NCBI GenBank assembly: GCA_963714675.1
Contig: CAVQPG010000016.1
Location: 10,988 to 74,987 of the forward strand
Direction of reading: 5' to 3'
Source: an uncultured Chloroflexia bacterium
GTDB lineage: Bacteria; Chloroflexota; Limnocylindria; Limnocylindrales; CSP1-4
Length of the DNA: 64,000 bases
Shown here: in pieces, positions 38,653 through 60,441 of the stretch
How positions within the stretch are numbered: position 1 is the first letter of the stretch
Layout of the letters: every line of letters starts with the position of its first letter
Translations under genes and position numbers: made by a program
The notes under the pieces: generated by a model
Databases searched by the model: none
What the model saw: the letters and a program-made list of their open reading frames with translations, nothing else
Told to the model about the DNA's origin: nothing

Positions 38653-38715
38653 GACCCTTCAGTCCTCCACGAGCCTGTCGGCCCGACTCGCACGGTAGTG
38701 TCCACGCGACCCTCA

Positions 38716-38729
38716 GTCAACCGGTTGAC
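38716..38729. promoter_or_regulatory. LacI-type operator, perfect palindrome GTCAACCGGTTGAC
   Basis: It lies 64 nt upstream of the metF-like start codon, in the gap after the URO-D gene 38822..40081. Identical 14-mers occur at 55584 and 56748, and a one-mismatch copy at 59103. Confidence 0.6.
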
Positions 38730-38821
38730 CAGCAAAGGTGCCACTTGGCAGGGTGGAGATCCGACCAGCGGACTGATCGGGGCGGGAAGGGCCAGCAGCG
38801 ACGAGCCAGCGCGGCCGTTCC

Positions 38822-40081
38822 TCAGCGGTACTCGTCGACCGCTTCGTACATGGCCTCGATGTTCTCGGGTGGGATGTCCGGGAGCATGTTGTGGGCGGTG
38901 GCGAAGACGAATCCACCACCCGGCGCCAGCGCCTCGATGTTGCGCCGGACGTGGTCGCGCACCTCATCGGGCGTGCCCCGGGGCAGCACCTTCCGCGTGT
39001 CGGCACCGCCGCCCCAGAAGGTGATGTCATCGCCGAAGGCCCGCTTGAGCTTCTCGGGCTCCATGTCGCGGGCGCTGATCTGCACCGGGTTGAGGATGTC
39101 CACGCCGGTCTCGATGATGTCCGGCAGCAGGTCATAGAGCGACCCGCAGCTGTGCAGGAACGTCTTCATCGAGCTGCGCTCGTGGACGTAGGCATTGAGG
39201 GCGGCATGGCGTGGCTTGAAGATGGCGCGGTAGGTGTCGGGCGACATCAGGGGACCGTTGTCCATGCCCAGGTCATCGCCGAAGCGCACGATGTCGACCA
39301 GGTCGCCGACCGACTCGATGACGTGGTCGAGCGTTTCGAAGTGCACCTCCAGCAGCGCGTCGAGCAGGCGCTCCACGTTGGCCTGATCGACCACCAGGTC
39401 CATGAGGAAGTTGTCGATGCGGCGCAGGAACGTGCCCCACTCGAAGAGGTTGCAGCCGACCACCACCATCAGTGCCCGGTCGGTCGACGCACGCAGCGCC
39501 ATCGTCCGGGTTCGCAGCGTCTCCCAGAATCCCTCGTCGCCGGCGTGATCCCAGGGGCTGTGGACGAGCCCCGACCAGAGCACCAGCGGCATGACCCGGG
39601 GCAGGTCCGTGAGGTCGTCGGGATAGCCATCGAGGTAGGGGAAGTAGGTCTGGTCGAAGAAGGCGGCACCCTTGGGCATGGCCGCGATGCGCAGTCCCTC
39701 GTCGGTGAAGGCCTCGAGGGCGCCGTCCGGCTGCAGCACCGGGTCGAACCAGACGGGGATCTCGGTGGCGACGCCGCTGGGCAGTGTCAGCGGCTTCCAG
39801 TCGGCGTCGTCGGCGTCGAACGTGCGGCCGATGTCCACCGCGTCGATGCGCAAGCGGTCGAGCAGCTCGTCCGACGGTTGGGCCAGCTGCTGCACGACGT
39901 CGTACACGCGCGTGCGCTGGTCGGCGGTTCCGAGGTGCCTGACCAGGTTGGCATGGGCGACCGCGGAGATGCCCGAGCTGGGGTTGGAGCCGAGGTCGAC
40001 CGCCAGCCGGTCCGGCTCACGATGCTCGATCGTCGCGAGGACGCGCTCGCGCGCGGTCATCGCTGTTCCCGGTTCGGCCAT
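38822..40081 (-). CDS. URO-D-family (MtaA/CmuA-type) methyltransferase
   Basis: Intact ORF. I prefer ATG 40081 (MAEPGTAMTARERVLATIEHREPDRLAVDLG) after GGAGGA rather than 40096. It has an H-S-C-G motif (FLHSCGS) and the family C-terminus ..PPENIEAMYEAVDEY. Confidence 0.8.
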   Translation of the reverse strand: MAEPGTAMTARERVLATIEHREPDRLAVDLGSNPSSGISAVAHANLVRHLGTADQRTRVYDVVQQLAQPSDELLDRLRIDAVDIGRTFDADDADWKPLTLPSGVATEIPVWFDPVLQPDGALEAFTDEGLRIAAMPKGAAFFDQTYFPYLDGYPDDLTDLPRVMPLVLWSGLVHSPWDHAGDEGFWETLRTRTMALRASTDRALMVVVGCNLFEWGTFLRRIDNFLMDLVVDQANVERLLDALLEVHFETLDHVIESVGDLVDIVRFGDDLGMDNGPLMSPDTYRAIFKPRHAALNAYVHERSSMKTFLHSCGSLYDLLPDIIETGVDILNPVQISARDMEPEKLKRAFGDDITFWGGGADTRKVLPRGTPDEVRDHVRRNIEALAPGGGFVFATAHNMLPDIPPENIEAMYEAVDEYR

Positions 40082-40162
40082 GTCTCGCTCCTCCATCGTT
40101 CATGCGGTCCCGTCGTCCGGCGATAGCAGCCAGGGTCCGCTCCCGGCCTGCTCAGGGTTTGA

Positions 40163-40928
40163 TCAGCCCATCCAGGCACCGCCGGTCACGTTCACGATGG
40201 CCCCGGTCATGAAGCTGGCATGGTTGGAGGCGAGGAAGACCGCGACCGCTGCCACCTCGGCTGGATCGGCTTGGCGGCCGAGTGGCGTGCTCTCGACGAA
40301 CGCCTGCGTTGCTGGCGTAAATCCGGCACGCTGCATGGGTGTGTCGACGATGCCGGGTGCGATGCTATTCACGCGGATGCCGTGGGGGCCGAAGTGCCGC
40401 GCCATCGCATACGTGAGCGAGATGATGCCGCCCTTGGATGACGCGTACGCCGGTGCCGAGCTGGGACCGCCGGTCGTTCCCGAGAGTGAGCTGAAGGTGC
40501 AGATGCTGCCGTCCGCCCCGGTCTGACGCATATGCTCTCCGGCGACTCGCGCCAGGAAGAAGGTGGACTTCAGGTTCGTGTCGAGCTGCCAGTCCCAGGC
40601 TGCCTCGCTCACGTCCTCGAAGGGCTCGCGCTTGAACACGCCCGCCGCGAGCACGACGGCACGGACATCACCCAGGTTCGTCGCTGCAGCCTCGACCAGG
40701 TCAGCGTGGGCCCCCAGATCGTTCACATCGACGCTCACGGCCTGGTGCGGCCCTCCAGGTAGTGAGTCGACCACGGCGCATACGTCGACGCGCTTCAAGT
40801 CAACGGCACAGACCCGAGCACCGACCGCGGCGAATGCTCTGGCGCTGGCCTCGCCGATGCCCGAAGCAGCGCCGGTGACGATGACACCGTGGGAGCTCGA
40901 GACCCCAGCCTCCGCGCGTGCCGTCCAC
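40163..40928 (-). pseudogene. short-chain dehydrogenase/reductase (SDR), frame broken near the 5' end
   Basis: The body is in ORF 40163..40798 (catalytic YASSK). The cofactor motif VIVTGAASGIG is in the same frame upstream, but has no start codon. The GTG at 40928 (VDGTRGGWGLEL..) is one frame off, and removing one C at about 40875 joins them. Confidence 0.7.
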
Positions 40929-40935
40929 GGCTCGC

Positions 40936-41698
40936 TTAGGAGCCTTCGGTGGCGAGCCGCAGGTCGTCGGCGACAGCGCTGAGATGTGCAGACATCTCCT
41001 CGCGCGCCCGCTCCGGGTCACGCTTGCGGAGCGCCTCGACGATGCGGCGATGGCCATCGATCCCGTGATCGGGTCCGAGCCTGGTCTTGGCGACCTTGCG
41101 GCGCAACTCGATCTGGAGCTCCGCGACGGAACCCAGGACGATGACGTAGAGGGGGTTGTGTGCGGCCTCTGCGAGGACCATGTGGAACTCCAGGTCACGA
41201 TTGACGAGTGCCGTCGGTGTCTGCCATGGAGGTAGCCGATTCGATGACCAGGACTTCGAGCTTCTCGATCTGCTCGTCGCCAGCACGCGTGGCGGCATGT
41301 GCCGCGATCTCCGGCTCCAGCCCGGATCGCAACTCCATGAGATCGACGATCGAGACGACGCTGCCCCCGATCACCGATACGAGTTCCGGGTCGATGAGGC
41401 GCCAGCGCTGTCGAGGGGTAACGCGCATGCCTGAGCCTTGCACGACCTCGACCAGCCCCTTGGTGCTGACGATGCGGACCGCTTCCCGGACCGCAGACTT
41501 GCCCACCGAGTACTCCCGCACCAGCTCCGCTTCGGTCGGCAGCAACGTGCCTGCTTCGAGGTCACCTTCGACGATCTGGCGGATGAGGCGGCTGGCGATC
41601 TGGTCCGGTATCCGGGTGCGCTGCACGGCTGATGCCGAGCGGGCCGGTGTCCGCTCGCTACCGAGGGTGGCGGACCCCGGAGGGCGTGGCCCAGTCAA
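40936..41698 (-). pseudogene. GntR/FadR-family transcriptional regulator, frame broken once
   Basis: The winged helix (PTEAELVREYSVGKSAVREAVRIVSTKGLV) is in ORF 41195..41698. The FCD domain tail (DLEFHMVLAEAAHNPLY..) is in ORF 40936..41298. The switch is at about 41235. Confidence 0.75.
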
Positions 41699-43217
41699 GC
41701 GAGGTCCTTCATGATCTTCTCGCTGATCTCGTCGTAGACGCGCGAGTTCTCGATCTCGGCCACGATGCGGCCGCCTTTCATGACCAGGATGCGATCAGCG
41801 AGCCGGACCATCTCGGGCATGTCGCTGGAGATCAGCAGGATGGCCTTGCCCGACCGGGCCAGGTCCCAGATGAGCTCGTGCAGGGCGTCCTTGGTCTTGA
41901 TGTCGATACCGATGGTGGGTTCGTCGACGATGAGGATGTCGGCCTCTGCGGCGAGCCACTTGGCGATGCTGACCTTCTGCTGGTTGCCGCCGCTGAGATT
42001 GCCCACGGTCTGCTCCAGCGACGGCGTGCGCACGTCGAGCTCCTCGGCATACTTGGCGGCGATCGCCCGCTCCTCGGCGCCGGGCACCCAGCCCAGAGCG
42101 CGGGATAGGCGACGCCACAGGGTCACCGAGATGTTGAAGATGATGTCCTTGTCCAGGATCAGCCCGTCGTTCTTGCGATCCTCGCTGACATAGCCGATGT
42201 GATAGCGGCCCAGCGCTTCGGCGACACTGCCGATCCTGGCTTCCTTGCCGTTCACGAGCGATGGTGCCGCCGGTGACCTCGACTGGCGCCGATGACGGCG
42301 TGGGCGAGCTCGGTGCGCCCCGCGCCAACCAGTCCATACAGGCCCAGGATCTCGCCGGGGAAGACCTCCAGGCTGGCTCCCACGACGCCGTCGATGGTGT
42401 CCACGTCGCTGAGCGTGAGGGCGGCCTGATCGCCCCTTGGCGGTCGCTCCGGCAGGTCGGCATCCTTCCTGGTGCGACCGATCATCCACGAGACGAGCTG
42501 GTCGCGGGTGAGGCCCTCCAAGCGGTTCGCCGGAAGCTACGTTCTTGCCGTCACGCAGGACCGTCACGCGGTCGCATAGCTCGAAGACCTCTTCCAGCTT
42601 GTGCGTGACTACGAGCACGGCCACGCCGCGATCGCGCAGCGAGCGCAGGATCTCGAAGAGGTGCGCGGCCTCGTGCGGGGTGATCGAGGCGGTGGGCTCG
42701 TCGAGCAACAGCACCCGGCTCTCCAGGGCCAGGGCACGCACGATCTCGACCTGCTGCATCTCCGCGGCAGAGAGCCGAACAGCCTGCCGGGTCACGGGAA
42801 TGTCCAGGTCCATGACTTCCAGCCAGCGGGCGGCCTCGCGGTTGACGGTGTCGTAGTCGACGAAGACCGAGCCGCGCAGGGGCATGCGCTCGATGAGGAT
42901 GTTCTCGCCGACCGAGAACTCGGGGATGAGGTTGCGCTCCTGGGGCACCGAGGCGATGCCGGCTTCGATCGACTCGCGCGGGTCTGCCGAACTGGACGTC
43001 CTGGCCGTCCATGCGCAGCGTTCCGCTGTCCTGGCCATAGAGGCCGGTGATGATCTTGATGAGCGTCGACTTGCCGGCGCCGTTCTCGCCCACGAGGGCG
43101 TGGATCTCGCCGCCCTTGAGCTCGAGCGAGACAGTCGTCCAGGGCCTGCACGCCGGGGAAGGCCTTGCTGACGCCCATGGCCTCGAGCGCGACCGTGTGT
43201 CGCAGCTGGTCGGTCAT
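41695..43217 (-). pseudogene. two-domain sugar ABC transporter ATP-binding protein, about five to six frame breaks
   Basis: The ATG 43217 segment [28 protein letters not shown], Walker [13 protein letters not shown] (ORF 42551..43093), LLLDEPTAS, the second Walker A GLVGAGRTEL (ORF 42252..42521), and LSGGNQQK/IVDEPTIGID (ORF 41695..43038) lie in different frames. Confidence 0.8.
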
Positions 43218-43218
43218 C

Positions 43219-44213
43219 TCAGCGTCCTCTGCGGGCACGCCCGACCTGGTGGCCACGTGGCTGGCATAGACGGTACCGAGGATGAACAGCCCGAGCAACA
43301 GCTCCACGTAGATGGGGTCGATACCGAGGTGCACGAGCGAGTTGTCGATGATGGCGATGATGAGCGCCGCAAGGATGAGGCCGATGATGCGCACCGATCC
43401 TCCGGTCAGCGCCACGCCGCCGATGATGGGCACGGCGAAGGAGACCAGCAGCCAGGACTGGCCGATCTGGGGCTGAGCTGCGCCCAGCTGCGCGGCCCAG
43501 AGCATGCCCGCACGCGCCCGCCAGCAGTCCGGAGATGACGTGCGCCCAGACGATGCGCCGGCCCACCGGGATGCCCGCTGTCTGGGCGGCGCCGAGGTTG
43601 CCACCCACGGCCAGGATCTGGCGTCCCACCAGCGTGCGGTAGAAGAACACCGCGAGGGCACCCAGGGTCGCGAGCGTGATGAAACCCATCAGCGGGGAAG
43701 AAGCCCAGGCGGGCCTGGCCGAAGGCCGTGAAGCCCAGCATCGAGGTCGTAGTACGGCTGGGCGTTGGTGATACCCAGGGTCAGCCCCAGGAAGACGCTG
43801 GCGGTGGCGATGGTCACGATGAAGGCATTGAGGCCCGTGCGCGCCACGATGATGCCGTTGAGCGCGCCGCAGGCCGCGCCGGTAGCGAGGCCCCCACCGA
43901 TAGCCAGCCACACCGGCAGGCCCCAGGCGTCCATGATGCCGCCCGCAGCGATGGCGGCGAGGCCGCCGATGCCGCCGACCGAGAGGTTCATCTGGCCGAT
44001 CGACAGGACCGTCATCTGCGCGGCTCCGATGAGCACCGCTGTGGCCACGCTGCGCAACACCACGAAGACGTTGAAGTCGGACAGGAACGAGTCCGACATG
44101 AACGACATCATGACCACGATCACGATGAGGATGGTCAGCAGGCCGGCCCAGCTGTACTGCGACAGCCTCGAGATCCAGCGGCGCCCGTCCGCCATCGATG
44201 CCGACCGCGTCAC
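43219..44213 (-). pseudogene. sugar ABC transporter permease (CUT2), at least three frame breaks
   Basis: Hydrophobic segments are split between ORFs 43689..44213, 43219..44223 and 42792..43661. Confidence 0.7.
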
Positions 44214-45185
44214 TTGCGTGCACCCAGTGAGAGACGCGTCATGGTGACCGAACGGACGCGGTCAAGGCTGACTGCCAGTAGCAGGATGAGACCCAGGAAG
44301 AAGTTCACGAAGAAGTTGCTGACGTTGAGCAGGAGCACGCCGTTGGTGATGCCGGCGACCAGGAAGCCGCCGACGATGGCCCCACCGACCGACACGCTGC
44401 CGCCGGTGATGGCGGTGCCGCCGATGACGGCGATGGCGAACGAGGGCAGGAGCCAGTCCATGCCGATACGCGGGACCGCGTCGGCGAGCATGGCCGCGGT
44501 CATGATGCCCGCCAGGCCCGCTAGCAGTCCCGAGAGCATGTGGGTCTTGATGATGGTGGCGCCCACGGGGATGCCGGACATGGCTGCGGCGCGGCGATTG
44601 GATCCGACGGCCAGGATCTCGCGGCCCAACTTGGTCTTGTTGTAGAGCAACCACAACAGAACGGCTGCCAGCAGCATCACCAGCACCAGCGGCGAGACCG
44701 GGAAGCCGAGGACGCGGATGCGGCTGAAGGTCAGGAACGCCGAGGGCAGGTCGTCATAGCTCTGTGCCTGGGTGATGGCCAGCATCAAGCCCGTGAAGAC
44801 GCTGGCGGTGGCGAGGGTGATGATGAAGCTGTTGATGCCTGTGCGGACGGTGAGCACGCCGTTGAGGGTTCCCATCAGAGCGCCCAGCGCGAGGGCGATG
44901 GGGATGGCCAGGAAGGGCGAGAGGGCGAACACCTCCATCAGTCCACCGGCACACATCGCCACGCCGCCGCCGATGGCCCCCAGCGAGAGGTTCATCTCGC
45001 CCGCGGAAAGGGCGATCATCTGCCCGAATGCGATGACGATCTGCACGGCTGCGAAACGCAGCAGGGTGAACAGGTTGAAGTCGCTCAGGAAGCCTTGGGC
45101 GAAGATGGCGAACGACGCCCAGAAGACGAAGCGTCACGGCCAGCAAGCCAAGCCTGGATTGGTTGCGCCGGAGGGCGTTTCTCAT
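44210..45185 (-). pseudogene. sugar ABC transporter permease (CUT2), frame broken once near the 5' end
   Basis: The body is in ORF 44210..45046. The N-terminus MRNALRRNQSRLGLLAVTLRLL.. is in ORF 44754..45185. The switch is at about 45110. Confidence 0.75.
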
Positions 45186-45313
45186 CAGCCTCTAGTGCAG
45201 TCTCCGGCGGCCGCGTCGCGGCTGACTCGAGGCGCGGTACCGGCAGTGGCTGGACTCGCGATGGGCGGCCCTCGAACGGGCCGCCCACGCTGTCGTGCTG
45301 GCCTAGGGGCAGG

Positions 45314-46346
45314 TCAGGTACTGCAGTGGGGAACGATCTCGGCGATGCCGGCGGTGACGACCTTGAGGTCATCGCCGTAGCTCTCGACGTTGTCGGCATC
45401 GATCAGCAGCGTGCCCGAGTCCACGAAGTACGGGGCATCTTCTGCCACAGTGCAACCCTTGGCCAGCATGGCCAGGATCTTGGAACCCACGAACGCCTGT
45501 CCGTAGGGGTTCTGGGCCATGGTGCCGTCGATGATGCCGTCACGGATGGCGTCGAGAACGATGGGGTCATCGTCGATGCCGACCATACGGATGCGGCCGT
45601 CACCGAGGTTGCGCAGCGCCGTCGCCGACACGGTGGAGGGCACGTAGGCCGTCGTCACGATGCCGTCGATCTCGTCGCCACGAGCCGCCAGGAACGAGTT
45701 GATCTTCTCGTCTGCTGACTCCTGGTCGTCGATGTCGGCGAGGTGCTCCACGATGGTGACCGCGCCGTCGGTCTCAGCCACCGCACGCTCGACCGCGTCG
45801 ATGCGAAGCGTCGTGTTGGGGTCGACGAGGAAGCCGGTGCCGTGCATGATCGCGCCTTCGCCACCCATGGCCTCGATCAGCGCCTTGGTGCCGAGGTAGG
45901 CAGAGTTGGCCACGTCGGTGCCGAAGCAGAAGGCCGCGTCGGTGGGCTCGGTCACACAGCCGGCGATGGCCATGACCGGGAAGCCGGCTGCAGACAGCTC
46001 GCTCATGATGGCGTTGGTGGCGTTGGCGTCACCGGGGAAGATGCCGAAGGCGTTGAAGCCCTGGGCGGCCATGCTGTTGAGGAGCTGGTTCTGGTCGTTC
46101 GAGGTTCCACGCGGGCGGAGCGCGGAATTCGCTCTCACCGAGTCCGTTCGCCTGCGACGGAGTCGGCCAGGCCGGGCTCCATGGGCAGGAAGTAGGGGTG
46201 CGGGCCGCCGGGGACGATCGCGACGCGGACGTCGGAGAAGTCCATCTCCTCTGCCTGCGCGACGGCCGGCGCGGCGATCGCGAGACGCCATGAGTGCGCT
46301 GAGGCCCAAGCCTCCTAGTCGGATGGCCCGTGATACTGGTTGCCAT
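45314..46346 (-). pseudogene. sugar ABC transporter substrate-binding protein (CUT2), several frame breaks in the 5' quarter
   Basis: ATG 46346 follows GGAGG. The signal peptide and mature N-terminus (..LAIAAPAVAQAEEMDFSDVRVAIVPGGPHPYFLPMEPGLADS..) are readable only by hopping frames between 46100 and 46310. The rest (NDQNQLLNSMAAQGFNAFGIFPGD...) is in ORF 45314..46309. Confidence 0.7.
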
Positions 46347-46634
46347 CTGTACCTCCAAGGGTTCGTGGATGACGAAGAGCGTTGTGCGATGGTGACTGGC
46401 GCCGTGGGCCGTCACCGGGCAGCGAGTCGTACCGCTGCCGTCGAGTCGATGTTCCCGGTCCGGTCTGTCCACCTCCCCTCACTCGTCGTGCTCGATCGAC
46501 GGTCCTCCCTGACGGCGATCACACAGCGGCTGTAGCAGGTCAGCTGTTGAGCGTATCACCTGATGAATATGCTATGTTGGCGCGCAATGAATGCCTGAAT
46601 GGTCACCCACATCCACCACAACGCCTCAGGATCG

Positions 46635-47811: not shown

Positions 47812-47917
47812 GCCCGGGCATCGCGACGGCGCCAGCGCACCGCGGCATCTGGGCTTCGGTACGATGAGACGCCGAGCCGAGGGGCACTCGACCCGCCGTG
47901 ATCAGGGGAGTGATCGA

Positions 47918-50287: not shown

Positions 50288-50407
50288 CCAGCGTTGCACC
50301 GCGCCCGTTTGCCAGCAAATCATCGGGTGATAGGATGAATACTATCCAAGGCGACCGCGCTCTGCCGGCTGGATCACGTCGGATGGCCGCACTGACAGGA
50401 GGAGTCG

Positions 50408-51329: not shown

Positions 51330-51369
51330 AGCCGCACCCTATCTGACGACTCGAGGAGGCTGCGCAGCA

Positions 51370-52431: not shown

Positions 52432-52494
52432 GAGCGCAGTGGAGACGCGCGAGACGCCTCAGCGGTCCGCTGCGCAGGCTCGCGGCACCGCGGG

Positions 52495-53682
52495 CTACTC
52501 CTCCGGCAGGTCGAGCGGGTACTGCCCGTACTCTCGGACGAGCCCGACGATGGTGTCGTACGTCTTGCCCGAGACGTCGCTGGAGACCGAGTGGTCGGAC
52601 ATGAACACGTAGCCGCCACCGTAGGCGGCACGGAGCCGGTGCAGGACCTCGCGTCGCAGCTCCTCGGGGTCGCCTCGCTCCCACACGCGCATGTCGCTGT
52701 TGCCGCAGAACGTGAGCCGGTGGCCCAGGCGCTCGCGAAGCTCGACCACGTCCAGGTCCGCCTTGGCCTCCAGCGGGTTGTAGCCGTCGAGCCCGATCTC
52801 GATCATGTCCTCGAGGTAGCTGTTGGCGTTGCCGCAGCCGTGGAAGATGACCGGCAGGTCGTGCTCGTGGCAGAGCTCGATGATGCGCGCGATGGTGGGC
52901 TTGTAGTACCTGCGCCAGTAGGTCGGGCCCATGAACAGGCCCTTGCGGTAGGCAGCGTCACCCCAGATGACCATGCCGTCGAGATAGCCATCGGCGGCCT
53001 CGATCTGGGCCTTGGTCACCGCGTAGCTGAACTCGCCGATGCGCAGCAGCTGCTCGCCGAAGCGCTCGGGGTGCTCGCCGATCCAGGTCAGGGTGTTGAG
53101 CTGGCCCAGCAGGCGAGTGGTGATCTCGGAGGCCTCGGTGATGCTGCCGTAGACCGGGAAGTCCGGATGCAGTGACCTGACCGTCTCCACCCACGGCGGG
53201 CTGTTGCGTTCGAAGCCATCGCCCACGCCGGCGATCTGGTTGTCACCGGCCTCGAAGTAGCGCCGACGGTCGGTGGGGTCGTCGAACTCGAAGGCCTCCA
53301 TCTTCTCGATGGTGTCGGTCTCCCAGCTGACCTGCTCGGGCATGGGCAGGTCGAAACGCTTGCGGATGGTCGTCTCGAAGCCCGTCTTGACCACTACCTC
53401 TTCGTCGTCCTCGCGGATGGTCTCGAACGGTCGGATATGCGGATCCATGTTCGGGACCGTGACGATGAAGTCGAGGTCGTAGTGGTAGTAGGGATCGGCG
53501 TCCGCGGGCAGGCCCAGCTCCTCCTGCCAGCGCTTGCGGAAGCTGCCCCAGAAGAAGTCACTGATGGGCACACGGTCCGGCTCTTCGTGCGCGAAGGTCT
53601 TGCGCATCCGCTCGAGCTTCTCGAGCGTCGACGGCTTGCGCTCGGCCGATGCGCCCGAGCCGTAGGTGCTGAACATGCTCAT
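52495..53682 (-). CDS. URO-D-family (MtaA/CmuA-type) methyltransferase
   Basis: Intact 395-aa ORF with an H-G-C-G motif (VIFHGCGN) and the family tail GGGYVFMSDHS. It lies immediately downstream of a corrinoid gene. Confidence 0.8.
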   Translation of the reverse strand: MSMFSTYGSGASAERKPSTLEKLERMRKTFAHEEPDRVPISDFFWGSFRKRWQEELGLPADADPYYHYDLDFIVTVPNMDPHIRPFETIREDDEEVVVKTGFETTIRKRFDLPMPEQVSWETDTIEKMEAFEFDDPTDRRRYFEAGDNQIAGVGDGFERNSPPWVETVRSLHPDFPVYGSITEASEITTRLLGQLNTLTWIGEHPERFGEQLLRIGEFSYAVTKAQIEAADGYLDGMVIWGDAAYRKGLFMGPTYWRRYYKPTIARIIELCHEHDLPVIFHGCGNANSYLEDMIEIGLDGYNPLEAKADLDVVELRERLGHRLTFCGNSDMRVWERGDPEELRREVLHRLRAAYGGGYVFMSDHSVSSDVSGKTYDTIVGLVREYGQYPLDLPEE

Positions 53683-53705
53683 GGTGTGTATGTACCCCCG
53701 TTCGC

Positions 53706-54356
53706 TCAGGCTGAGCCGATGACCGACTTGGCGATCTCAGCCGCGGCGCCGGCGTCGGCGGCGAAGCCGTCCGCCTGCACCTCGTCGGCGAACTCCTGTG
53801 AGACCGGCGCCCCGCCGATGATGATCTTGGTATCCACGCCGCTGGCCCTGACCGCTGCCACCGCGTCTCGCATGTGCGGCATGGTGGTCGTCAGCAGCGC
53901 TGACATGCCCACGATGTCCGGCTGGTACTCCTGGGCCGCCGCAGCGAAGGCGGAAGGGGAGACGTTGACGCCCAGGTCGATGACCTCGATGTTGGCGCCA
54001 CGCCACATCATGCCCACGAGGTTCTTGCCGATGTCATGGAGGTCGCCCTCGACGGTGCCGATGACGGCCGAATGCGGCGCCCGCTGTCCGCTCTCGGCGA
54101 TGAGCGGCTCGAGGATGGCCAGCGAAGCCTTCATGGCGTTGGCGGCGATGAGCATCTCGGGTACGAAGATCTCGTCCTGCTGGAAGCGCTCACCGATGAC
54201 GGCCATGCCCGGGACCAGCCGGGTCTCGATGATCGCGCCCGGCTCCTCACCTTCTTCCAGGCATCGCTGTGTCAGCTCGACGGCTCCAGCCTTGTCGCCG
54301 TCGATGATGGCCTGGGTCAGTGGGTGCATCTCGGCCAAGGTCGTCCTCCCCTCCAT
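53706..54356 (-). CDS. corrinoid methyl-carrier protein
   Basis: It has DxHxxG (GDLHDIGK) and IIIGGAPV. The longer ORF to 54602 overlaps the upstream gene. Alignment with the other corrinoid proteins puts the start at 54329-54356 (an ATG at either end, or the TTG at 54338 after GGAGGGGAGGA). Confidence 0.8.
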   Translation of the reverse strand: MEGRTTLAEMHPLTQAIIDGDKAGAVELTQRCLEEGEEPGAIIETRLVPGMAVIGERFQQDEIFVPEMLIAANAMKASLAILEPLIAESGQRAPHSAVIGTVEGDLHDIGKNLVGMMWRGANIEVIDLGVNVSPSAFAAAAQEYQPDIVGMSALLTTTMPHMRDAVAAVRASGVDTKIIIGGAPVSQEFADEVQADGFAADAGAAAEIAKSVIGSA

Positions 54357-54429
54357 GGCAGGCCCAGCCTGTGGGCCCGCGTGCTTGCGGTATCCATGCG
54401 TCATCCTTCCGACGCGGCGCTCGAGATCG

Positions 54430-55569
54430 TCAGTTGCTCCCGGGCGCCTCCGATCCGACGTCGACGACCTGTTCGGTCTCCCCGGAGCGGTACAGCGCGT
54501 CGACCAGGCGCAGTGTCTTGAGGTTGTCGCGCGCGCCGGACTCCGGCTCGCCGCCATCGTGCATGGCGCGCAACAGCGAACCGACCGGGCCCAGGAAGGC
54601 ATCGGGCACCCAGCGACGGGTCACCGGATAGGGCAGCCAGCCATCGGTGGGCATCACCCGGCTCCAGAGCTCGAGCGTATCGGGTCGTCCGTGCGGGTAG
54701 TCGGAGAGCAGACCCAGGGTGCCCCGGATGGCGCCTTCAGAACCGTCGATGCGGAAGCGGGCTTCGTTGTCGCCCGCGAGGTTCTCCTGGTTGGAGTGGA
54801 CCAGGCCGCGCACGTCCCCGGGGTAGATGAGCACGCTCACTGTCCGCGTGTCGCCGATCGGCTTCTGGCCCGGCAGGCGCCACTGCGTCCCGAACACCTT
54901 GGTGGGCTCGCCCAGGAACGCTCGCAGCGTGTCGATGTAATGGATGGAATGGAAGTAGATCTCGAGCTTGGGCGCCTGCCCCAACCAGCCCCAGCCGGCG
55001 AGGTCGGTGTCGATGTTGACCTCGAAGGAGATGGTCGTGACCTCGCCGATCCAGCCGCGTTCGATCATGGCGCGGGCGGCACGCATGCCTTCCTCGTAGC
55101 GCATCTGCTGCTGGACGGCCACCTTGCGGCCGAGTTCGTCGGCCCGCGCCACGATCCTGGCCGCGTCTTCCACGTCGAGCGCCAGCGGCTTCTGGCACAT
55201 CACGTCTTTGCCGGCCTCCAGCGCTCGCAGGGCGATCTCGACCTGGGCCTCGGGTACGACCGCGATGTCCACCACCGCCACGTCGGGGTCGCCCAGCAGC
55301 TCGTCGAGCGTGTCGTAGACGCGGAGGATACCGTGCGCCTGGGCCAGCCGCTCGGCATGGCTGCGGTCACGGCCCCAGACGCCGGGTACCGGGATGCCCG
55401 CCGATCGATACACGGGCAGGTGGCCCACGTCCAGGATGGCGCCGGTGCCCACTAGCGCGACCGGGCGGATGTAGCGTTCCGGCAGCGAGAGGTCGCAGGC
55501 ATCGGCGATCTCCGCCAGCCAGCCCATCATGTCAGCGGTTCCCACGCTCGCATCTGCCATGTATAGCAA
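54430..55569 (-). CDS. Gfo/Idh/MocA-family NAD(P)-dependent oxidoreductase
   Basis: It has a Rossmann N-terminus (IRPVALVGTGAI) and the family EKP-like block (VMCQKPLAL). The start is uncertain (TTG 55569, or ATG 55560 or 55530). Confidence 0.8.
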   Translation of the reverse strand: MLYMADASVGTADMMGWLAEIADACDLSLPERYIRPVALVGTGAILDVGHLPVYRSAGIPVPGVWGRDRSHAERLAQAHGILRVYDTLDELLGDPDVAVVDIAVVPEAQVEIALRALEAGKDVMCQKPLALDVEDAARIVARADELGRKVAVQQQMRYEEGMRAARAMIERGWIGEVTTISFEVNIDTDLAGWGWLGQAPKLEIYFHSIHYIDTLRAFLGEPTKVFGTQWRLPGQKPIGDTRTVSVLIYPGDVRGLVHSNQENLAGDNEARFRIDGSEGAIRGTLGLLSDYPHGRPDTLELWSRVMPTDGWLPYPVTRRWVPDAFLGPVGSLLRAMHDGGEPESGARDNLKTLRLVDALYRSGETEQVVDVGSEAPGSN

Positions 55570-55583
55570 CCGGGGCTGGGCAA

Positions 55584-55597
55584 GTCAACCGGTTGAC
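55584..55597. promoter_or_regulatory. LacI-type operator, perfect palindrome GTCAACCGGTTGAC
   Basis: It lies in the 37-nt gap between the LacI stop (55607) and the oxidoreductase/corrinoid/URO-D operon start. Confidence 0.6.
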
Positions 55598-55606
55598 CTA
55601 CGCTGC

Positions 55607-56667
55607 TCAGCGGTCGCGATGCATCTTGATGTAGGCCGTCGTGCCCGGACCGCGCGCCCCCGGGGGAGGCATCGCCACGGTGGCTCCGGGGGAGATCCGG
55701 ATGGCCTCCTGGAGCGTCTCGTGGATGGGTACATCCCAGGCGTTGTCGAGCAGCAGTTCCACGGCCCTGCGGCCGAGCTCGCGCAGCGGCATCTCCACGC
55801 AGGTCATGGCCGGAAGGCGGTAGTCCTCGGCCGGCAGCTTGTGGAGCGCGATGAGCGAGACGTCACCCGGCACCGACAGCCCGTGTCGGTGCAGAGCGTG
55901 CCACACGCCAAGACCCTCGTTGGCGTCCGCGGCGACGATGGCCGTCGGTGGCTCGGGGCTCTTGAGGAACTCGCGCACCGCGGCCGCCCCGCCCTCGGGC
56001 GTGTAGTCGGTGCTCACGAGCCAGCTCGGATCGAGCCACAGGTCGGCTGCTGCCATGGCATCGCGGAAGCCGTCCTGGCGTCGCTCGGCCGTGTCGACCC
56101 CCGCGGGTCCCCCGGCCCAGCCGATGCGGGTGTGGCCGTGGCTGATGAGGTACTCGGTGGCCATGAGCGCCGCGTGTTCGTCGTCGAGGATGACCCAGCG
56201 CTCGGCGCTGCCCGAGCGGCGGTTGACCAGCAGGGTCGGCACGCGCGGGTCCCCGAACAGCTCGTCGGCGTCATAGCCGGCGCGCAGGCCGGCCACGAGG
56301 GCACCGTCCACAGCTCCACTTCGCAGGAGGCGCAGATAGCGCTCGGTGAGCTCGCCCTCGTGCGAGGCCGTCCAGAGCAGCAGACCACGCGCTTCGGCCA
56401 CCTCCTCCGCGCCCGCGATGATGGGCACGATCAGCGGGTTGCCCGAAGGGACCAGCAGGCCGATGGCCCCGGCACGCGCCCGGGCCAGGCCCCGGGCATG
56501 GAAGTTGGGCCGGTAGTCGAGGGCGGCGGCCGCCTCCTTGACGCGCTGGCGGGTCTCCGCACGGACGCGCAGTGTCGGATCCCCGCTGAGCACCTTCGAG
56601 ACGACCGCACGGTCGACCCCGGCGCGGCTGGCCACGTCGGCGATGGTGGTTCGACCCGGTTCCTTCA
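55607..56667 (-). CDS. LacI-family transcriptional regulator
   Basis: ATG 56667 (MKEPGRTTIADVASRAGVDRAVVSKVLSG, the LacI HTH) followed by a periplasmic-binding-protein-like sugar-sensor domain. Confidence 0.85.
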
Positions 56668-56747
56668 TGCGCGCATCCCGTCGATGGTGCCTGAGCGGCG
56701 CTCGATCACACCTGGTCGCCGCAGCATGCGCGTATCGTCCCTCCTTG

Positions 56748-56761
56748 GTCAACCGGTTGAC
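56748..56761. promoter_or_regulatory. LacI-type operator, perfect palindrome GTCAACCGGTTGAC
   Basis: It lies in the divergent intergenic region between lacI (start 56667) and the gene starting at 56842. Confidence 0.6.
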
Positions 56762-56841
56762 GCGAGTCGACCGCGGGGGCTACCGTCTGTCGCCGGTGAT
56801 GGCGAGGACATGGTCCGCCCTCGCCGGGGGAGGAGCAGGAG

Positions 56842-57699
56842 ATGCGGTTCGGCGTCCTCGGCGTGATCTGGAGCGATTGGGCAGACGTGAGCTACGAGCT
56901 GGTCGCCTTCGCGCGCGAGCTCGGGTTCACGGGCATGGGTGCCCACCTGACCGTGCCGGCGTCGACCATCACCGACGAGATCGCCCGGAACGTCCGGGCC
57001 AGCATCGACGCCAACGGCCTCGACTTCTTCCAGCTCTGGGGGCCGTACCCCACCATCATCAGCGAGGACGAGGAGGTCAGGCGCGCCGGCGTCGAAGGTG
57101 CCTGCGATGTCGTGCGCCTGGCAGCGCGCCTGGGCGTGCCGAGCTCCGGCGTACGCCCCACCAGCCACAACCCCCGTGGCGACTGGTGGCCGCACCCGGA
57201 GAACCACAGCCCGGCGAGCGAGGACCGCCTCGTGCGCAGCATCTCCGAGATCCTCGAGGTGGCCGTGCCAGCGGGGGTGAAGGTCGTGCTCGAGGCCCAC
57301 GCGACCTCGACGCTCGATTCGGCCGAGCGCGTCCGACGTGTCATCGAGCGTACGGACCCTGCCGGGGTCACGGTCAACATCGACCCGGTCAATTTCGTGC
57401 GCGACCTGCCCACCGCCTTCGACTCCACGGCCATGATCGACGAGTACTTCGACATCTGCGGCCCGTACTGCGACACCGTCCAGATCAAGGACTGCTACCT
57501 CGAAGACCGCTTCGTCGTCCATATCGCCGAGACCATCCCGGGCACGGGCATGCTCGACATCGACACCGTGCTGCGACGGACCGAGGCCCTGGGTCCTGAC
57601 ATGTACGCCGTGGTCGAGCACCTGCCGGTGAACCAGATCGGACTGGCCAAGCAGCACCTCAGCGCACGAGCGGCGGCCCTCGGCATCGAGGTCCACTGA
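56842..57699 (+). CDS. sugar-phosphate isomerase/epimerase (xylose-isomerase-like TIM barrel; IolE/MocC-type fold)
   Basis: Intact 285-aa ORF with the pattern typical of the AP-endonuclease-2/IolE-like TIM-barrel family (..VVLEAHA..NIDPVNF..). Confidence 0.7.
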   Translation: MRFGVLGVIWSDWADVSYELVAFARELGFTGMGAHLTVPASTITDEIARNVRASIDANGLDFFQLWGPYPTIISEDEEVRRAGVEGACDVVRLAARLGVPSSGVRPTSHNPRGDWWPHPENHSPASEDRLVRSISEILEVAVPAGVKVVLEAHATSTLDSAERVRRVIERTDPAGVTVNIDPVNFVRDLPTAFDSTAMIDEYFDICGPYCDTVQIKDCYLEDRFVVHIAETIPGTGMLDIDTVLRRTEALGPDMYAVVEHLPVNQIGLAKQHLSARAAALGIEVH

Positions 57700-59063
57700 T
57701 GAGGTCCGCCGACCCGGAGCGACTGCGTCGGCTGGCACGCGAGCACCTGTGGATGCCCTATTCACCGCCGGGGGCGCAGGGGCCGGTGCGAGACGAGATC
57801 CGCATCATGACCCACGGCCGAGGGGTACGGACCTGGGACCTCGATGGCAAGGAGTACCTCGATGGCACATCCGCCCTCGAGGCCCTCATCCTCGGGCATG
57901 CCGACGAGGAGGTGGTCGAGGCCATCGCCGAGCAGGCTCGCACGATGTCCTTCGTCGACGTCTTCCGCTTCGTGACACCACCCCAGGTGGAGCTGGCCGC
58001 GGAGCTGGTGGCGGCATCACCGGGCATGGCCATGGCGCACTTCACGCCCGGGGGTGCGGAGGCCGACGAGGTGGCCATCAAGATGGCGCGCCAGTATCAC
58101 GCGCTGCGAGGCGAGCCCTATCGCATGAAGGTCATCACCCGCCAGGGAGCCTTCCACGGCGTGACCGCCGGTGCGATGGCGCTCGACGGACAGTACTTCG
58201 CCTCCCGCAACGTGGTCTACGACGGCGGGGTCAGCTGGGGCCGGACCGTCCCGGCCGGCGCCTGTCCGCGGTGCGACTTCGGCAAGGCCAGCCGTCACCT
58301 GGCCTGCGTCCACGCCATCGAGGCGACCATCCGGGCGGAGGGACCCGAGACCGTCGCGGCGGTGGTCGTCGACCCGTGTGCCACGGCCATCGCCGTGTCC
58401 GTCCCGCCGGTCGGCTACCTGCGCGACCTGCGTGAGGTGTGCGATCGCCATGGCGTGCTGCTCGTGGTCGACGAGGTCATCACCGGCATGGGCCGGACCG
58501 GCAAGCTGTTCGCCACCGAGTGGGACGGCATCGTGCCCGACTTCATCACCATGTCGAAGGCGCTCAGCTCCGGCTACGTGCCCATCGGGGCCGCGCTCAT
58601 CTCGCCCAGGGTGCGGGATGCCTTCCTCGAGCACGAGGGCGTGTTCCTGCACGGGCACACGTACGCCGGCCATCCCGTGGCCGCCGCTGCCGCCCTGACC
58701 GTCCTGCGCCGCGTCATCCGAGACGACCTCGCCGGACGTGCGGCCACCCTGGGGGCTCGCCTGCTCGAAGGTGTGCGTTCGCTGAGCCACCACCGTTCCT
58801 TCTGGGATGCCCGCGGCAAGGGCCTGTTGACCGGCCTCGAGATCGTGCGCGACAACGGCACCGGGGAGGACTTCGACGATCCCCTCGCGGCCGGCAACGC
58901 GCTGCGCATCGCGGCCCGCGAACGTGGTCTCACGACGCTGCTGCTGCACCCCGGCAACGTGCTCTTCGTGGCCCCCGCGGTGGTTGCCAGCGAGGAGCAG
59001 ATCGACCGGATGGTGGCCATCCTCGACGACGCTCTGGGCGACATCGAGGCAAGCCTCGCGTGA
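57699..59063 (+). CDS. class III (omega-type) PLP-dependent aminotransferase
   Basis: Intact 454-aa ORF with VVDEVITGMGRTGKLFA and the PLP-lysine context ITMSKALSSGY. The start overlaps the upstream stop (ATGA-type junction). Confidence 0.85.
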   Translation: MRSADPERLRRLAREHLWMPYSPPGAQGPVRDEIRIMTHGRGVRTWDLDGKEYLDGTSALEALILGHADEEVVEAIAEQARTMSFVDVFRFVTPPQVELAAELVAASPGMAMAHFTPGGAEADEVAIKMARQYHALRGEPYRMKVITRQGAFHGVTAGAMALDGQYFASRNVVYDGGVSWGRTVPAGACPRCDFGKASRHLACVHAIEATIRAEGPETVAAVVVDPCATAIAVSVPPVGYLRDLREVCDRHGVLLVVDEVITGMGRTGKLFATEWDGIVPDFITMSKALSSGYVPIGAALISPRVRDAFLEHEGVFLHGHTYAGHPVAAAAALTVLRRVIRDDLAGRAATLGARLLEGVRSLSHHRSFWDARGKGLLTGLEIVRDNGTGEDFDDPLAAGNALRIAARERGLTTLLLHPGNVLFVAPAVVASEEQIDRMVAILDDALGDIEASLA

Positions 59064-59102
59064 TGGGCAGCTGGGGCCGTGCCATCCGTGGCGGGCACGG
59101 TG

Positions 59103-59116
59103 GTCAACCGCTTGAC
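59103..59116. promoter_or_regulatory. LacI-type operator variant GTCAACCGCTTGAC (one central mismatch)
   Basis: It lies in the gap between the aminotransferase stop (59063) and the amidohydrolase start (59197). Confidence 0.45.
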
Positions 59117-59196
59117 TCGGGGTATGTCCAACGGCTACCGTGGCTCGGGTCCGGGCCCGGGGACCGCGGCCTGAACGGCTCGAAAGGGGGTCGTGC

Positions 59197-60372: not shown

Positions 60373-60441
60373 CCCGACCAAGGGATAGGGCCGCACACGC
60401 GGCAGAGAACCGGATCCGACCGGAGGAGTAGAGGAGCAAGG

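What the first reader, a model, noticed from the sequence alone, without database searches (positions are those of the whole stretch)
38716..59116. Identical 14-bp palindrome GTCAACCGGTTGAC upstream of the sugar operons and of the THF C1 block
Seen in sequence: perfect copies lie at 38716-38729 (64 nt before the metF-like start), 55584-55597 (before the oxidoreductase/corrinoid/URO-D operon) and 56748-56761 (divergent lacI / isomerase-aminotransferase promoter). A one-mismatch copy (GTCAACCGCTTGAC) lies at 59103-59116, before the lactonase/mutarotase/ABC operon. All four are intergenic. I found no other full copy by eye. Established knowledge: LacI-family operators are palindromes with an AA-N-CG-N-TT core, which this sequence has (AACCGGTT). 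Inference: the LacI-family protein at 55607-56667 co-regulates carbohydrate uptake and oxidation genes, a corrinoid/methyltransferase pair, and the C1-THF module 17 kb away. This is independent cis-regulatory support that methyl-group oxidation and sugar catabolism belong to one pathway.
Basis: partly seen in the sequence, partly recalled or inferred. Interest (0 to 1): 0.7.

Follow-up and report, generated by a model that had tools for sequence, protein, structure and literature searches.

The report
LacI repressor operator shared by four promoters
A 14-base palindrome that sits on the -35 box of four promoters is very probably the binding site of the neighbouring LacI-type repressor, which thereby switches on together a sugar-like uptake and oxidation pathway, a vitamin-B12-dependent methyl-transfer system and the folate enzymes that oxidise the methyl group, in uncultured soil Chloroflexota.

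Summary
There are three perfect copies of GTCAACCGGTTGAC and one one-mismatch copy, all intergenic. About 0.25 copies with two mismatches or fewer are expected by chance. Both lie inside duplicated aldolase genes and lack the central CG, so they are probably irrelevant.

Comparative evidence strongly supports the interpretation. I fetched 28 orthologous LacI loci by protein similarity alone (Limnocylindria-type Chloroflexota, one Acidimicrobiia). The palindrome or a close variant precedes lacI in every one. It recurs before the same operons at fixed distances and never falls in a homology-defined coding segment. It is invariant while the flanks are only 40-50% conserved.

In relatives the folate C1 block is either fused downstream of the lacI-oxidoreductase-corrinoid-methyltransferase operon or lies divergent from lacI, sharing one palindrome with it.

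Each site overlaps a TTGAC -35 box, with a conserved -10-like hexamer 17-18 nt downstream. This suggests repression by promoter occlusion, with autoregulation.

The element is a new member of a known kind. The unusual part is the regulon content, which hints at corrinoid-dependent demethylation of a methylated carbohydrate. Binding, effector and substrate are untested.

The parts
56748..56761 (.). Operator O1: perfect palindrome in the divergent lacI / TIM-barrel promoter region. It carries TTGAC on both strands, so it overlaps the putative -35 boxes of both promoters.
   Evidence: It is invariant in 15 of 15 orthologous regions while the flanks show 0.48 column identity.
55584..55597 (.). Operator O2: perfect palindrome between the lacI stop and the GFO/MocA oxidoreductase-corrinoid-URO-D operon.
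   Evidence: It is conserved in 16 orthologous regions, with a fixed TATACA(T) box 17 nt downstream of TTGACT.
59103..59116 (.). Operator O3: one-mismatch, asymmetric variant GTCAACCGCTTGAC before the amidohydrolase/RhaM-ABC transporter operon.
   Evidence: The same asymmetric variant is invariant in 13 orthologous regions.
38716..38729 (.). Operator O4: perfect palindrome between the URO-D gene 38822-40096 and the MTHFR-like gene that heads the C1/THF block.
   Evidence: It is conserved before MTHFR-like genes in L001, L002, L003, L013, L016-18, L026, L030, L032, L035 and L041, 56-63 nt from the start codon.
55607..56668 (-). LacI/GalR-family regulator (353 aa), the proposed binder. It has an HTH_LacI domain, a hinge YRPNFHARGLA and a periplasmic-binding-protein-like effector domain.
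   Evidence: Pfam, solved structures, alignment to E. coli LacI. The recognition helix VDRAVVSKVLS is invariant in all orthologs.
56781..56786 (+). Putative -10 box TACCGT of the TIM-barrel/aminotransferase promoter, 18 nt after -35 TTGACG (56757-56762).
   Evidence: A conserved island (rc GACGGTAG) at fixed distance in 13 of 15 orthologous regions. It is not picked up by the consensus scanner.
56723..56728 (-). Putative -10 box CATGCT of the lacI promoter, 18 nt after -35 TTGACC (rc of 56747-56752).
   Evidence: CATGCT or CATCCT is conserved at fixed distance. This is inference.
55560..55565 (-). Putative -10 box TATACA (preceded by TGC) of the oxidoreductase operon promoter, 17 nt after -35 TTGACT (rc of 55583-55588).
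   Evidence: TATACA is invariant in 16 of 16 regions, including distant orthologs L022 and L024.
59136..59141 (+). Putative -10 box TACCGT of the amidohydrolase/RhaM operon promoter, 18 nt after -35 TTGACT (59112-59117).
   Evidence: CACGGTAG (rc) is conserved at fixed distance in 11 of 13 regions.
38692..38697 (-). Putative -10 box TACCGT of the C1-block promoter, 17 nt after -35 TTGACT (rc of 38715-38720).
   Evidence: TACCGT or TACCTT sits at the same distance in the four class-D regions.
52495..55560 (-). Regulated operon 1: GFO/IDH/MocA oxidoreductase (54430-about 55560, start codon uncertain), corrinoid protein (53706-about 54380, longest ORF runs to 54602) and URO-D/MtaA-like methyltransferase (52495-53682).
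   Evidence: Pfam and NCBIfam; synteny.
56842..59063 (+). Regulated operon 2: xylose-isomerase-like TIM-barrel protein (56842-57699) and class III aminotransferase (57699-59063).
   Evidence: Pfam; synteny.
59197..63774 (+). Regulated operon 3: Amidohydro_2 (L-fucono-lactonase-like) fused to RhaM mutarotase (59197-60372), solute-binding protein (60442-61812) and two permeases (61901-63774).
   Evidence: Pfam and NCBIfam.
31582..38651 (-). Regulated operon 4 (the extent downstream of FTHFS is inferred). It holds MTHFR-like (about 37749-38651), MetV-like DUF5981 (37165-37743), pterin-binding methyl-corrinoid:THF methyltransferase (36130-37089), FolD (35213-36055) and FTHFS (about 33477-35277, frameshifted). 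These are followed on the same strand by URO-D (32340-33305) and a corrinoid protein (31582-32373).
   Evidence: Pfam and NCBIfam. The same gene order occurs in L001, L003, L015, L016 and L035.
23788..23801 (+). Look-alike GTCAACCAGTTGAC inside a class-II aldolase gene. It is probably not an operator. Its twin lies at 28553-28566 in the duplicated copy.

Best explanation
GTCAACCGGTTGAC is the operator of the LacI/GalR-family repressor encoded at 55607-56668.

Proposed mechanism. A dimer binds the two GTCAAC half-sites with its helix-turn-helix heads and inserts the hinge-helix leucines into the central CG. At all four sites the right-hand TTGAC of the palindrome is the -35 box of a promoter, with a conserved -10-like hexamer 17-18 nt downstream. 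Bound repressor would therefore exclude RNA polymerase. At the divergent site one dimer would cover both back-to-back -35 boxes, which gives autoregulation of lacI. Three sites lie between co-directional genes, so bound repressor may also block read-through. An unknown pathway metabolite bound to the sugar-binding domain would release the repressor.

Proposed regulon. It couples an ABC importer, a lactonase-like/mutarotase fusion, a GFO/MocA oxidoreductase, a TIM-barrel isomerase-like enzyme and an aminotransferase with a corrinoid methyltransferase system and the MTHFR-FolD-FTHFS route from methyl-THF to formate.

Shown here: motif, positions, conservation, co-occurrence with the regulator, and gene content. 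Inferred: binding, repression, promoter elements, effector and substrate.
For: 1. Enrichment. The window holds 6 copies with up to 2 mismatches against 0.25 expected.

2. Co-occurrence. 28 orthologous LacI loci were fetched by protein similarity only. All carry the palindrome or a 1-2 mismatch variant before lacI. In most it lies 34-80 nt upstream of lacI. In L009, L014 and L027 it lies before an SDR gene whose stop overlaps the lacI start. The non-orthologous Streptomyces LacI locus L029 has none.

3. Location. In 584 kb of loci there are 57 perfect and 26 one-mismatch copies, with 0 inside homology-defined coding segments. Distances to start codons are tightly fixed.

4. Phylogenetic footprint. 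Column identity is 0.98-1.00 in the palindrome against 0.40-0.50 in the 40-nt flanks. The only other conserved islands are hexamers at a fixed 17-18 nt from TTGAC.

5. Link to the C1 block. In L001 (LacI 97% identical), L002, L003, L015 and L032 the URO-D-MTHFR-MetV-pterin methyltransferase block (continuing to FolD-FTHFS where the locus extends far enough: L001, L003, L015) directly follows lacI-GFO-corrinoid-URO-D. In L013, L016-18, L026, L030, L035 and L041, lacI and MTHFR are divergent neighbours sharing one perfect palindrome.

6. The protein fits. HTH_LacI and Peripla_BP domains pass the Pfam cut-offs. It shows full-length similarity to CcpA, RbsR, PurR and LacI structures. The hinge Ala and Leu align with LacI L56, the feature tied to a central CG (PMC2329647). 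The recognition helix is invariant among orthologs.

7. Agreement with family-wide rules in PMC4052901: even palindromes with a central CG, most sites 30-140 nt upstream of the start codon, and 72% of regulators autoregulated.

8. Position. The operator centre lies about 2-3 nt upstream of the -35 box, the range where CcpA represses (PMC2329647).
Against: There is no experimental binding or expression data.

The consensus sigma-70 scanner finds no promoter at any site. The -10 assignments (TACCGT, TATACA, CATGCT) rest on conservation only.

The conserved core is 14 bp, shorter than the 16-22 bp usually reported for the family.

In this window URO-D 38822-40096 and the ABC operon upstream of it have no palindrome at their own promoter region (46310-46590). 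Transcription could therefore read into the C1 block independently of the regulator.

The flank of the 38716 site resembles the lacI-promoter flank of loci where lacI sits there, so the site could in principle be a relic.

Only about 10 kb on each side of lacI was examined in relatives. No whole genome was scanned.
Confidence: 0.85

Rival explanations
1. The site before the C1 block (38716) is an evolutionary leftover. It comes from an ancestral arrangement in which lacI sat between MTHFR and URO-D, and it no longer regulates anything in this genome. Only the three sites around lacI would be functional.
For: The flank of the 38716 site is homologous to the lacI-promoter flank of the MTHFR|lacI divergent loci L013, L016 and L026. 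The window's 38.8-47.8 kb segment is syntenic with L016 minus lacI.
Against: The palindrome is perfect, and TACCGT is kept at the right spacing in four loci with the same 'after URO-D' arrangement, although their flanks have only 0.40 column identity. A decaying relic should have accumulated changes. The regulator 17 kb away has the same invariant recognition helix as the MTHFR-adjacent paralogs.
Confidence: 0.07
2. The LacI-family protein binds the palindrome but activates transcription, or activates some promoters and represses others, as CcpA and Cra can.
For: LacI-family activators exist. For CcpA the outcome depends on site position (PMC2329647).
Against: The site overlaps the -35 hexamer itself, which is already a near-consensus TTGAC. 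CcpA activation sites lie 21-31 nt upstream of the -35 box, while sites at about -4 repress. Most family members are repressors released by a ligand (PMC4052901).
Confidence: 0.04
3. The palindrome is simply a pair of back-to-back -35 promoter boxes or the site of another, unlinked DNA-binding protein, and its neighbourhood with lacI is incidental.
For: TTGAC occurs on both strands of the motif. One unrelated high-GC contig (L037) has the same 14-mer before a GntR/HutC-like gene.
Against: The full palindrome is kept at three unidirectional promoters, where one TTGAC would be enough. lacI is the only gene constant across all rearranged contexts. Distant orthologs carry co-varying variants: GTCAATCGGTTGAC at 58-63% identity and GTCAAGCGCTTGAC at 52%.
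Confidence: 0.03
4. It is a dispersed repeat, an RNA hairpin or terminator, or a chance occurrence.
For: It is a perfect palindrome, and one copy lies just after the lacI stop codon.
Against: Zero of 83 copies fall in homology-defined coding segments, and positions relative to start codons are fixed. RNA folds are no more stable than shuffles (z from -0.97 to +0.56), and no U-tract terminator is found. Rfam gives no match. Chance expectation is 0.25 per window.
Confidence: 0.01

Closest known systems
LacI/GalR-family local repressors with central-CG palindromic operators (PurR, CcpA, RbsR, GalR type; regulon reconstructions of Ravcheev et al. 2014, PMC4052901)
   Same: The domain architecture is the same, including a hinge helix with Ala/Leu. 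The operator is an even palindrome with a central CG. The sites lie 30-140 nt upstream of start codons. The regulator is autoregulated, clusters with its targets, and controls sugar-type ABC transporters and oxidoreductases.
   Different: It is not an ortholog of any curated named regulator; the best NCBIfam hit is RbsR at 153 bits against a cut-off of 382. The half-site GTCAAC, with recognition residues R20/A21/K25 in place of LacI Y17/Q18/R22, is not described in the searched literature. The conserved core is 14 bp. The regulon includes corrinoid methyltransferases and the THF C1-oxidation enzymes, which is unusual for the family.
Corrinoid-dependent O-demethylase / methyltransferase systems of anaerobes (URO-D/MtaA-like methyltransferase, corrinoid protein, pterin-binding methyl-corrinoid:THF methyltransferase, e.g. 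Mtv/Odm-type; named from my own knowledge)
   Same: The regulated genes include MtaA/CmuA-like URO-D proteins, a B12-binding corrinoid protein, a pterin-binding methyltransferase similar to methyl-THF:corrinoid methyltransferases, and then MTHFR, FolD and FTHFS.
   Different: All matches fall below the NCBIfam equivalog cut-offs. No activating enzyme was identified. Control is by a sugar-type LacI regulator. The system is embedded among sugar-like transport and oxidation genes in Limnocylindria-type Chloroflexota rather than in an aromatic-ether context. It is also not the mlp cluster type of PMC10418091, which by definition lacks THF methylases.
Cytochrome P450 carbohydrate demethylases (6-O-methyl-D-galactose; PMC6292453)
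   Same: This is a known solution to the same presumed problem, removing a methyl group from a sugar before catabolism.
   Different: The chemistry and proteins are entirely different: oxidative P450 there, corrinoid/THF methyl transfer here. The link is only at the level of the hypothesis.

Membership tests
LacI/GalR-family transcription factor | N-terminal HTH_LacI DNA-binding domain | tested here: met
   PF00356 matches residues 8-55 at 46.3 bits against a cut-off of 27.
LacI/GalR-family transcription factor | C-terminal periplasmic-binding-protein-like effector domain | tested here: met
   PF13377 scores 101.9 bits and PF00532 81.5 bits. There are full-length matches to CcpA, RbsR, PurR and LacI structures.
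LacI/GalR-family transcription factor | Hinge helix with conserved Ala and Leu that contacts the central CG | tested here: met
   In YRPNFHARGLA, L61 aligns with LacI L56. The hinge Leu is invariant in all 28 orthologs; the rest of the hinge varies only in L019, L023 and L025. The rule comes from PMC2329647.
LacI/GalR-family transcription factor | Membership of a named orthologous group (RbsR, PurR, CcpA, GalR and others) | tested here: not met
   All 17 NCBIfam hits are far below their curated cut-offs.
LacI-family operator | Even palindrome with a central CG pair | tested here: met
   The motif is GTCAAC-CG-GTTGAC. 1173 of 1303 family motifs have a central CG (PMC4052901).
LacI-family operator | Typical length of 16-22 nt | tested here: inconclusive
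   Only 14 columns are invariant. Position +8 is often C(A) on one side, and the Acidimicrobiia ortholog L025 has a longer palindrome, TTTTGGTCAAGCGCTTGACCAAAA.
LacI-family operator | Position in the promoter region, mostly 30-140 nt upstream of the start codon | tested here: met
   In the window the distances are 64 nt (MTHFR), 80 nt (TIM barrel), 79 nt (lacI), 80 nt (amidohydrolase/RhaM) and 22-55 nt (GFO, start uncertain). In relatives the distances are fixed.
LacI-family operator | Co-occurrence with the regulator gene and conservation before orthologous targets (phylogenetic footprint) | tested here: met
   28 of 28 orthologous loci carry it. Column identity is 0.98-1.00 in the palindrome against 0.40-0.50 in the flanks.
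LacI-family operator | Specific binding by the regulator and release by an effector | not testable with these tools
   This needs EMSA, footprinting, DAP-seq or reporter assays.
Corrinoid-dependent methyltransferase (O-demethylase-type) system | Substrate:corrinoid methyltransferase, corrinoid protein and methyl-corrinoid:THF methyltransferase encoded together | tested here: met
   The window has URO-D/MtaA-like genes (52495-53682, 38822-40096, 32340-33305), B12-binding proteins (53706-54602, 31582-32373) and a Pterin_bind gene (36130-37089).
Corrinoid-dependent methyltransferase (O-demethylase-type) system | ATP-dependent reductive activase (RACE/Ram) | not tested
   None was recognised among the ORFs scanned. 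Not every ORF of the window was scanned.
Dispersed intergenic repeat (REP/MITE-like) | Many copies irrespective of gene context, including in or between unrelated genes | tested here: not met
   Within the Chloroflexota/Acidimicrobiia loci the copies occur only at regulon promoters. The 12 in-context hits of the metagenome pattern scan lie in the same gene context, and 4 are unrelated contigs.

The most novel reading that the evidence does not exclude
The regulon defines a previously undescribed catabolic route in abundant soil and freshwater Chloroflexota (Limnocylindria). A methylated carbohydrate would be imported, demethylated by a corrinoid-dependent URO-D-type methyltransferase onto tetrahydrofolate, and its methyl group oxidised to formate with ATP gain. 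Candidate substrates are an O-methyl 6-deoxyhexose, an O-methyl cyclitol or a methylated amino sugar. The sugar skeleton would be oxidised through the GFO / TIM-barrel / lactonase branch, all under one LacI-type repressor. This would be a first corrinoid-dependent carbohydrate demethylase. The known carbohydrate demethylases found in the literature search are P450 monooxygenases (PMC6292453).
Probability: 0.35. Interest if true: 0.75.

Novelty: new member of a known kind. Interest (0 to 1): 0.5.

Why it matters
The operator itself is textbook LacI-family biology. It is nevertheless a well-supported regulatory motif for an uncultured Chloroflexota lineage in which, as far as my searches show, no transcription-factor site has been described. 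It also gives a functional grouping that gene order alone does not give in this genome.

Here the C1/THF block lies 17 kb from the regulator. The shared operator and the fused or divergent arrangements in relatives show that it belongs with the transporter, the oxidoreductase and the corrinoid methyltransferases.

This turns a vague cluster of URO-D paralogs into a testable hypothesis. One induced pathway would strip a methyl group from a carbohydrate-like substrate by B12 chemistry and burn it through folate. The regulator's effector-binding domain offers a direct handle (ligand screening) for finding the substrate.

Tried and rejected
1. The consensus sigma-70 and terminator scan of the site regions gave 0 promoters and 0 terminators. 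The -10 boxes proposed here are non-consensus and rest on conservation.

2. The RNA hairpin or terminator reading was rejected. Folds are no better than shuffles, and Rfam finds nothing in the window, including no cobalamin riboswitch.

3. Full-text search for the 14-mer found 0 papers.

4. The look-up of the source contig through the last permease gene found no record, so the window could not be extended.

5. The metagenome scan for palindrome + N18-19 + TACCGT, run to find new regulon members, gave 16 hits. Twelve are the same lacI, TIM-barrel or MTHFR promoters, three are low-GC chance hits, and one (L037) is an unrelated GntR-like context. No new member was found.

6. Three-mismatch copies in the window are too weak to interpret and were not pursued. 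The SBP/ABC promoter region at 46310-46590 has no site.

7. The two genic one-mismatch copies were rejected as operators. They are coding, duplicated and have lost the central CG.

8. The mlp methyltransferase clusters (PMC10418091) were considered and rejected as the same system, because they exclude THF methylases.

9. NCBIfam equivalogs for the pathway enzymes all fall below cut-off, so no substrate assignment was possible.

Full report
OBSERVATION. A search of the window finds GTCAACCGGTTGAC perfectly at 38716, 55584 and 56748. GTCAACCGCTTGAC lies at 59103. With up to two mismatches there are 6 matches against 0.25 expected from dinucleotide shuffles, and no shuffle reaches 6. Both lie inside paralogous class-II aldolase genes at the codons V-N-Q-L-T. 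They are 4765 bp apart, the same offset as a 4.76 kb tandem duplication. They therefore represent one coding event, and they lack the central CG. Three-mismatch copies are weak and were not interpreted: 6 such copies, against about 2.7 copies expected at up to 3 mismatches.

GENE MAP.
- On the minus strand: lacI (55607-56668), a GFO/IDH/MocA oxidoreductase, a B12-binding corrinoid protein and a URO-D/MtaA-like methyltransferase (52495-53682).
- On the plus strand: a xylose-isomerase-like TIM-barrel protein, a class III aminotransferase, an Amidohydro_2 (L-fucono-lactonase-like)/RhaM fusion, a solute-binding protein and two permeases.
- 17 kb away on the minus strand: URO-D (38822-40096), then the site, then MTHFR-like, MetV-like (DUF5981), a pterin-binding methyltransferase, FolD and FTHFS. 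A further URO-D and a further corrinoid protein follow.
All four sites are intergenic. Many ORFs look frameshifted (FTHFS, an SDR, an aldehyde dehydrogenase, a permease), as expected for a long-read metagenome assembly.

COMPARATIVE TEST. Homologs of the regulator are numerous in Chloroflexota and 'Candidatus Limnocylindrales' MAGs. I scanned species-representative genomes with an alignment of 24 orthologs. This returned 29 loci selected by protein similarity only.
- All 28 orthologous loci (52-97% identity) carry the palindrome or a close variant before lacI. The 27%-identical Streptomyces locus has none.
- In three loci the site precedes an SDR gene whose stop overlaps the lacI start.
- The same sites recur after lacI before the oxidoreductase, and before the amidohydrolase/RhaM gene. 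The latter always shows the same asymmetric one-mismatch variant.
- Orthologs at 58-63% identity have GTCAATCGGTTGAC. The Acidimicrobiia ortholog (52%) has two copies of GTCAAGCGCTTGAC inside a longer palindrome.
- Over 584 kb of loci there are 57 perfect and 26 one-mismatch copies. None lies inside a homology-defined coding segment. Distances to start codons are fixed: 56-63 nt for MTHFR, mostly 76-95 nt for the TIM-barrel and amidohydrolase genes (extremes 53-118), and 34-80 nt for lacI.
- Column identity is 0.98-1.00 in the palindrome and 0.40-0.50 in the 40-nt flanks.

THE C1 BLOCK.
- In L001 (regulator 97% identical), L002, L003, L015 and L032, the block starting at URO-D 38822 runs directly downstream of lacI-GFO-corrinoid-URO-D. 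The palindrome is retained before MTHFR in L001, L002, L003 and L032.
- In L013, L016/17, L018, L026, L030, L035 and L041, a 73-75% identical copy of the regulator is the divergent neighbour of MTHFR. One perfect palindrome lies between them.
- The window's arrangement looks like the L016 arrangement without lacI. The flank of the 38716 site is homologous to the lacI-promoter flank of those loci.
- The palindrome and its -10-like box are intact in four loci with this arrangement, although the flanks have diverged. This argues against a dead relic.

MECHANISM. At every site the right-hand TTGAC plus one base reads as a -35 hexamer. The only other conserved island is a hexamer 17-18 nt downstream. 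It is TACCGT for the TIM-barrel, amidohydrolase and MTHFR promoters, TATACA for the oxidoreductase promoter, and CATGCT or CATCCT for lacI. The consensus scanner does not call these promoters, so the assignment is an inference from conservation. The palindrome contains TTGAC on both strands, so at the divergent site one bound dimer would cover both -35 boxes.

The protein has the HTH_LacI and sugar-binding domains and shows full-length similarity to CcpA, RbsR, PurR and LacI structures. Its hinge helix has Ala and Leu aligned with LacI L56. In this family that residue intercalates at the central CG (PMC2329647). The recognition helix VDRAVVSKVLS is invariant in all orthologs.

Family-wide surveys report even palindromes with a central CG, sites mostly 30-140 nt upstream of start codons, and autoregulation in 72% of cases (PMC4052901). 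For CcpA, sites at about the -35 box repress. The best-supported reading is therefore a ligand-released repressor that occludes four promoters, including its own. Three sites lie between co-directional genes, so road-blocking of read-through is an additional possibility, by inference.

ALTERNATIVES. A hairpin or terminator role is not supported. A dispersed repeat is excluded. A bare double -35 element does not explain why the full palindrome is kept at unidirectional promoters. Another regulator is unlikely, because lacI is the only constant neighbour through several rearrangements.

WHAT IT IS RELATIVE TO KNOWN SYSTEMS. It is a new local regulon of the LacI/GalR family. It is not an ortholog of any curated regulator, and its half-site does not appear in the searched literature. 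The unusual feature is the regulon content: a corrinoid methyltransferase system and the methyl-THF-to-formate route, co-regulated with sugar-type transport and oxidation genes.

The window as a whole holds at least six URO-D paralogs, three corrinoid proteins and several sugar-acid pathway genes. Only the four promoters described carry this operator. Distant orthologous loci lack the methyltransferases but keep the TIM-barrel protein and, depending on the locus, the GFO oxidoreductase, the amidohydrolase/RhaM gene and sugar ABC-transporter genes. L025 adds enolase-superfamily dehydratases and an FMN-dependent dehydrogenase. This hints at a 6-deoxyhexose-like core pathway onto which demethylation was grafted in the Limnocylindria-type clade. 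The hint is speculative. The substrate, the effector and the role of the aminotransferase remain unknown. The carbohydrate demethylases found in the literature search are P450 enzymes (PMC6292453).

VERDICT. The element is a new member of a known kind. Interest is moderate, and it comes from the pathway hypothesis the regulon makes testable.

Noticed in passing
window 21021-25285 and 25782-30052: A tandem duplication of about 4.76 kb at 86-94% identity. It carries an RraA-like aldolase, an FGGY sugar kinase, a class-II aldolase and a HAD hydrolase. It explains the two genic look-alike copies of the palindrome.
   Followed up: partly
window 1068-2372, 19887-20732, 32340-33305, 38822-40096, 46591-47811, 52495-53682; corrinoid proteins 9339-10112, 31582-32373, 53706-54602: The 64 kb window holds at least six URO-D/MtaA-like paralogs and three B12-binding corrinoid proteins. 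They are interleaved with sugar ABC transporters, an SMP-30 lactonase, an enolase-superfamily dehydratase and an IlvD/Edd dehydratase. Only part of this island carries the palindrome, so other regulators must control the rest.
   Followed up: partly
window 33477-35277 (FTHFS), 47561-48786 (SDR), 49203-50267 (aldehyde dehydrogenase), 43219-44261 (permease), 37518-37749 (MTHFR ORF overrun): Several genes are split or run on in the wrong frame, with Pfam matches covering only part of the profile. This looks like indel errors of a long-read metagenome assembly rather than pseudogenes. Many related loci come from 'MFD' MAGs and show the same kind of breaks.
   Followed up: no
window 38730-38821 compared with L013 2358-2430 and L016 9925-10000: The sequence between the 38716 palindrome and the URO-D stop is homologous to the lacI promoter/leader of loci where lacI sits next to MTHFR. 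This suggests that lacI was lost or moved from this position. Relative to L001, the window has about 12.4 kb (40097-52494) inserted between the two URO-D genes.
   Followed up: partly
window 59103-59116 and class-C sites in L001-L028: The one-mismatch asymmetric variant before the amidohydrolase/RhaM operon is itself invariant in 13 orthologous loci. This suggests a deliberately weaker or differently tuned operator rather than drift.
   Followed up: partly
L025 4519-4590: The Acidimicrobiia ortholog has two copies of GTCAAGCGCTTGAC 40 bp apart. The first sits in a 24-bp palindrome, TTTTGGTCAAGCGCTTGACCAAAA. This hints that the full operator may extend beyond 14 bp and that two dimers may bind there.
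   Followed up: no
L037 2242-2280: An unrelated high-GC metagenome contig has the same 14-mer plus TACCGT at the same spacing. It lies between a GntR/HutC-like regulator gene and an unknown gene. This could be chance or an unrelated operator.
   Followed up: partly
window 1-64000: No Rfam family reaches its gathering score anywhere in the window. In particular there is no cobalamin riboswitch, despite three corrinoid-protein genes.
   Followed up: yes
window 46310-46590: The divergent promoter region between the Peripla_BP_4 binding-protein operon and URO-D 46591 has no palindrome. It contains a locally AT-richer stretch (46550-46600) that may hold a different regulatory site.
   Followed up: no
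L003 and L019 (same MAG); L016 and L017 (same MAG): Single MAGs can carry two copies of the regulator. One pair is 85% and 67% identical to the window's protein, and the other pair is near-identical. All have the same recognition helix and the same palindrome, so cross-regulation between paralogous regulons is likely.
   Followed up: no
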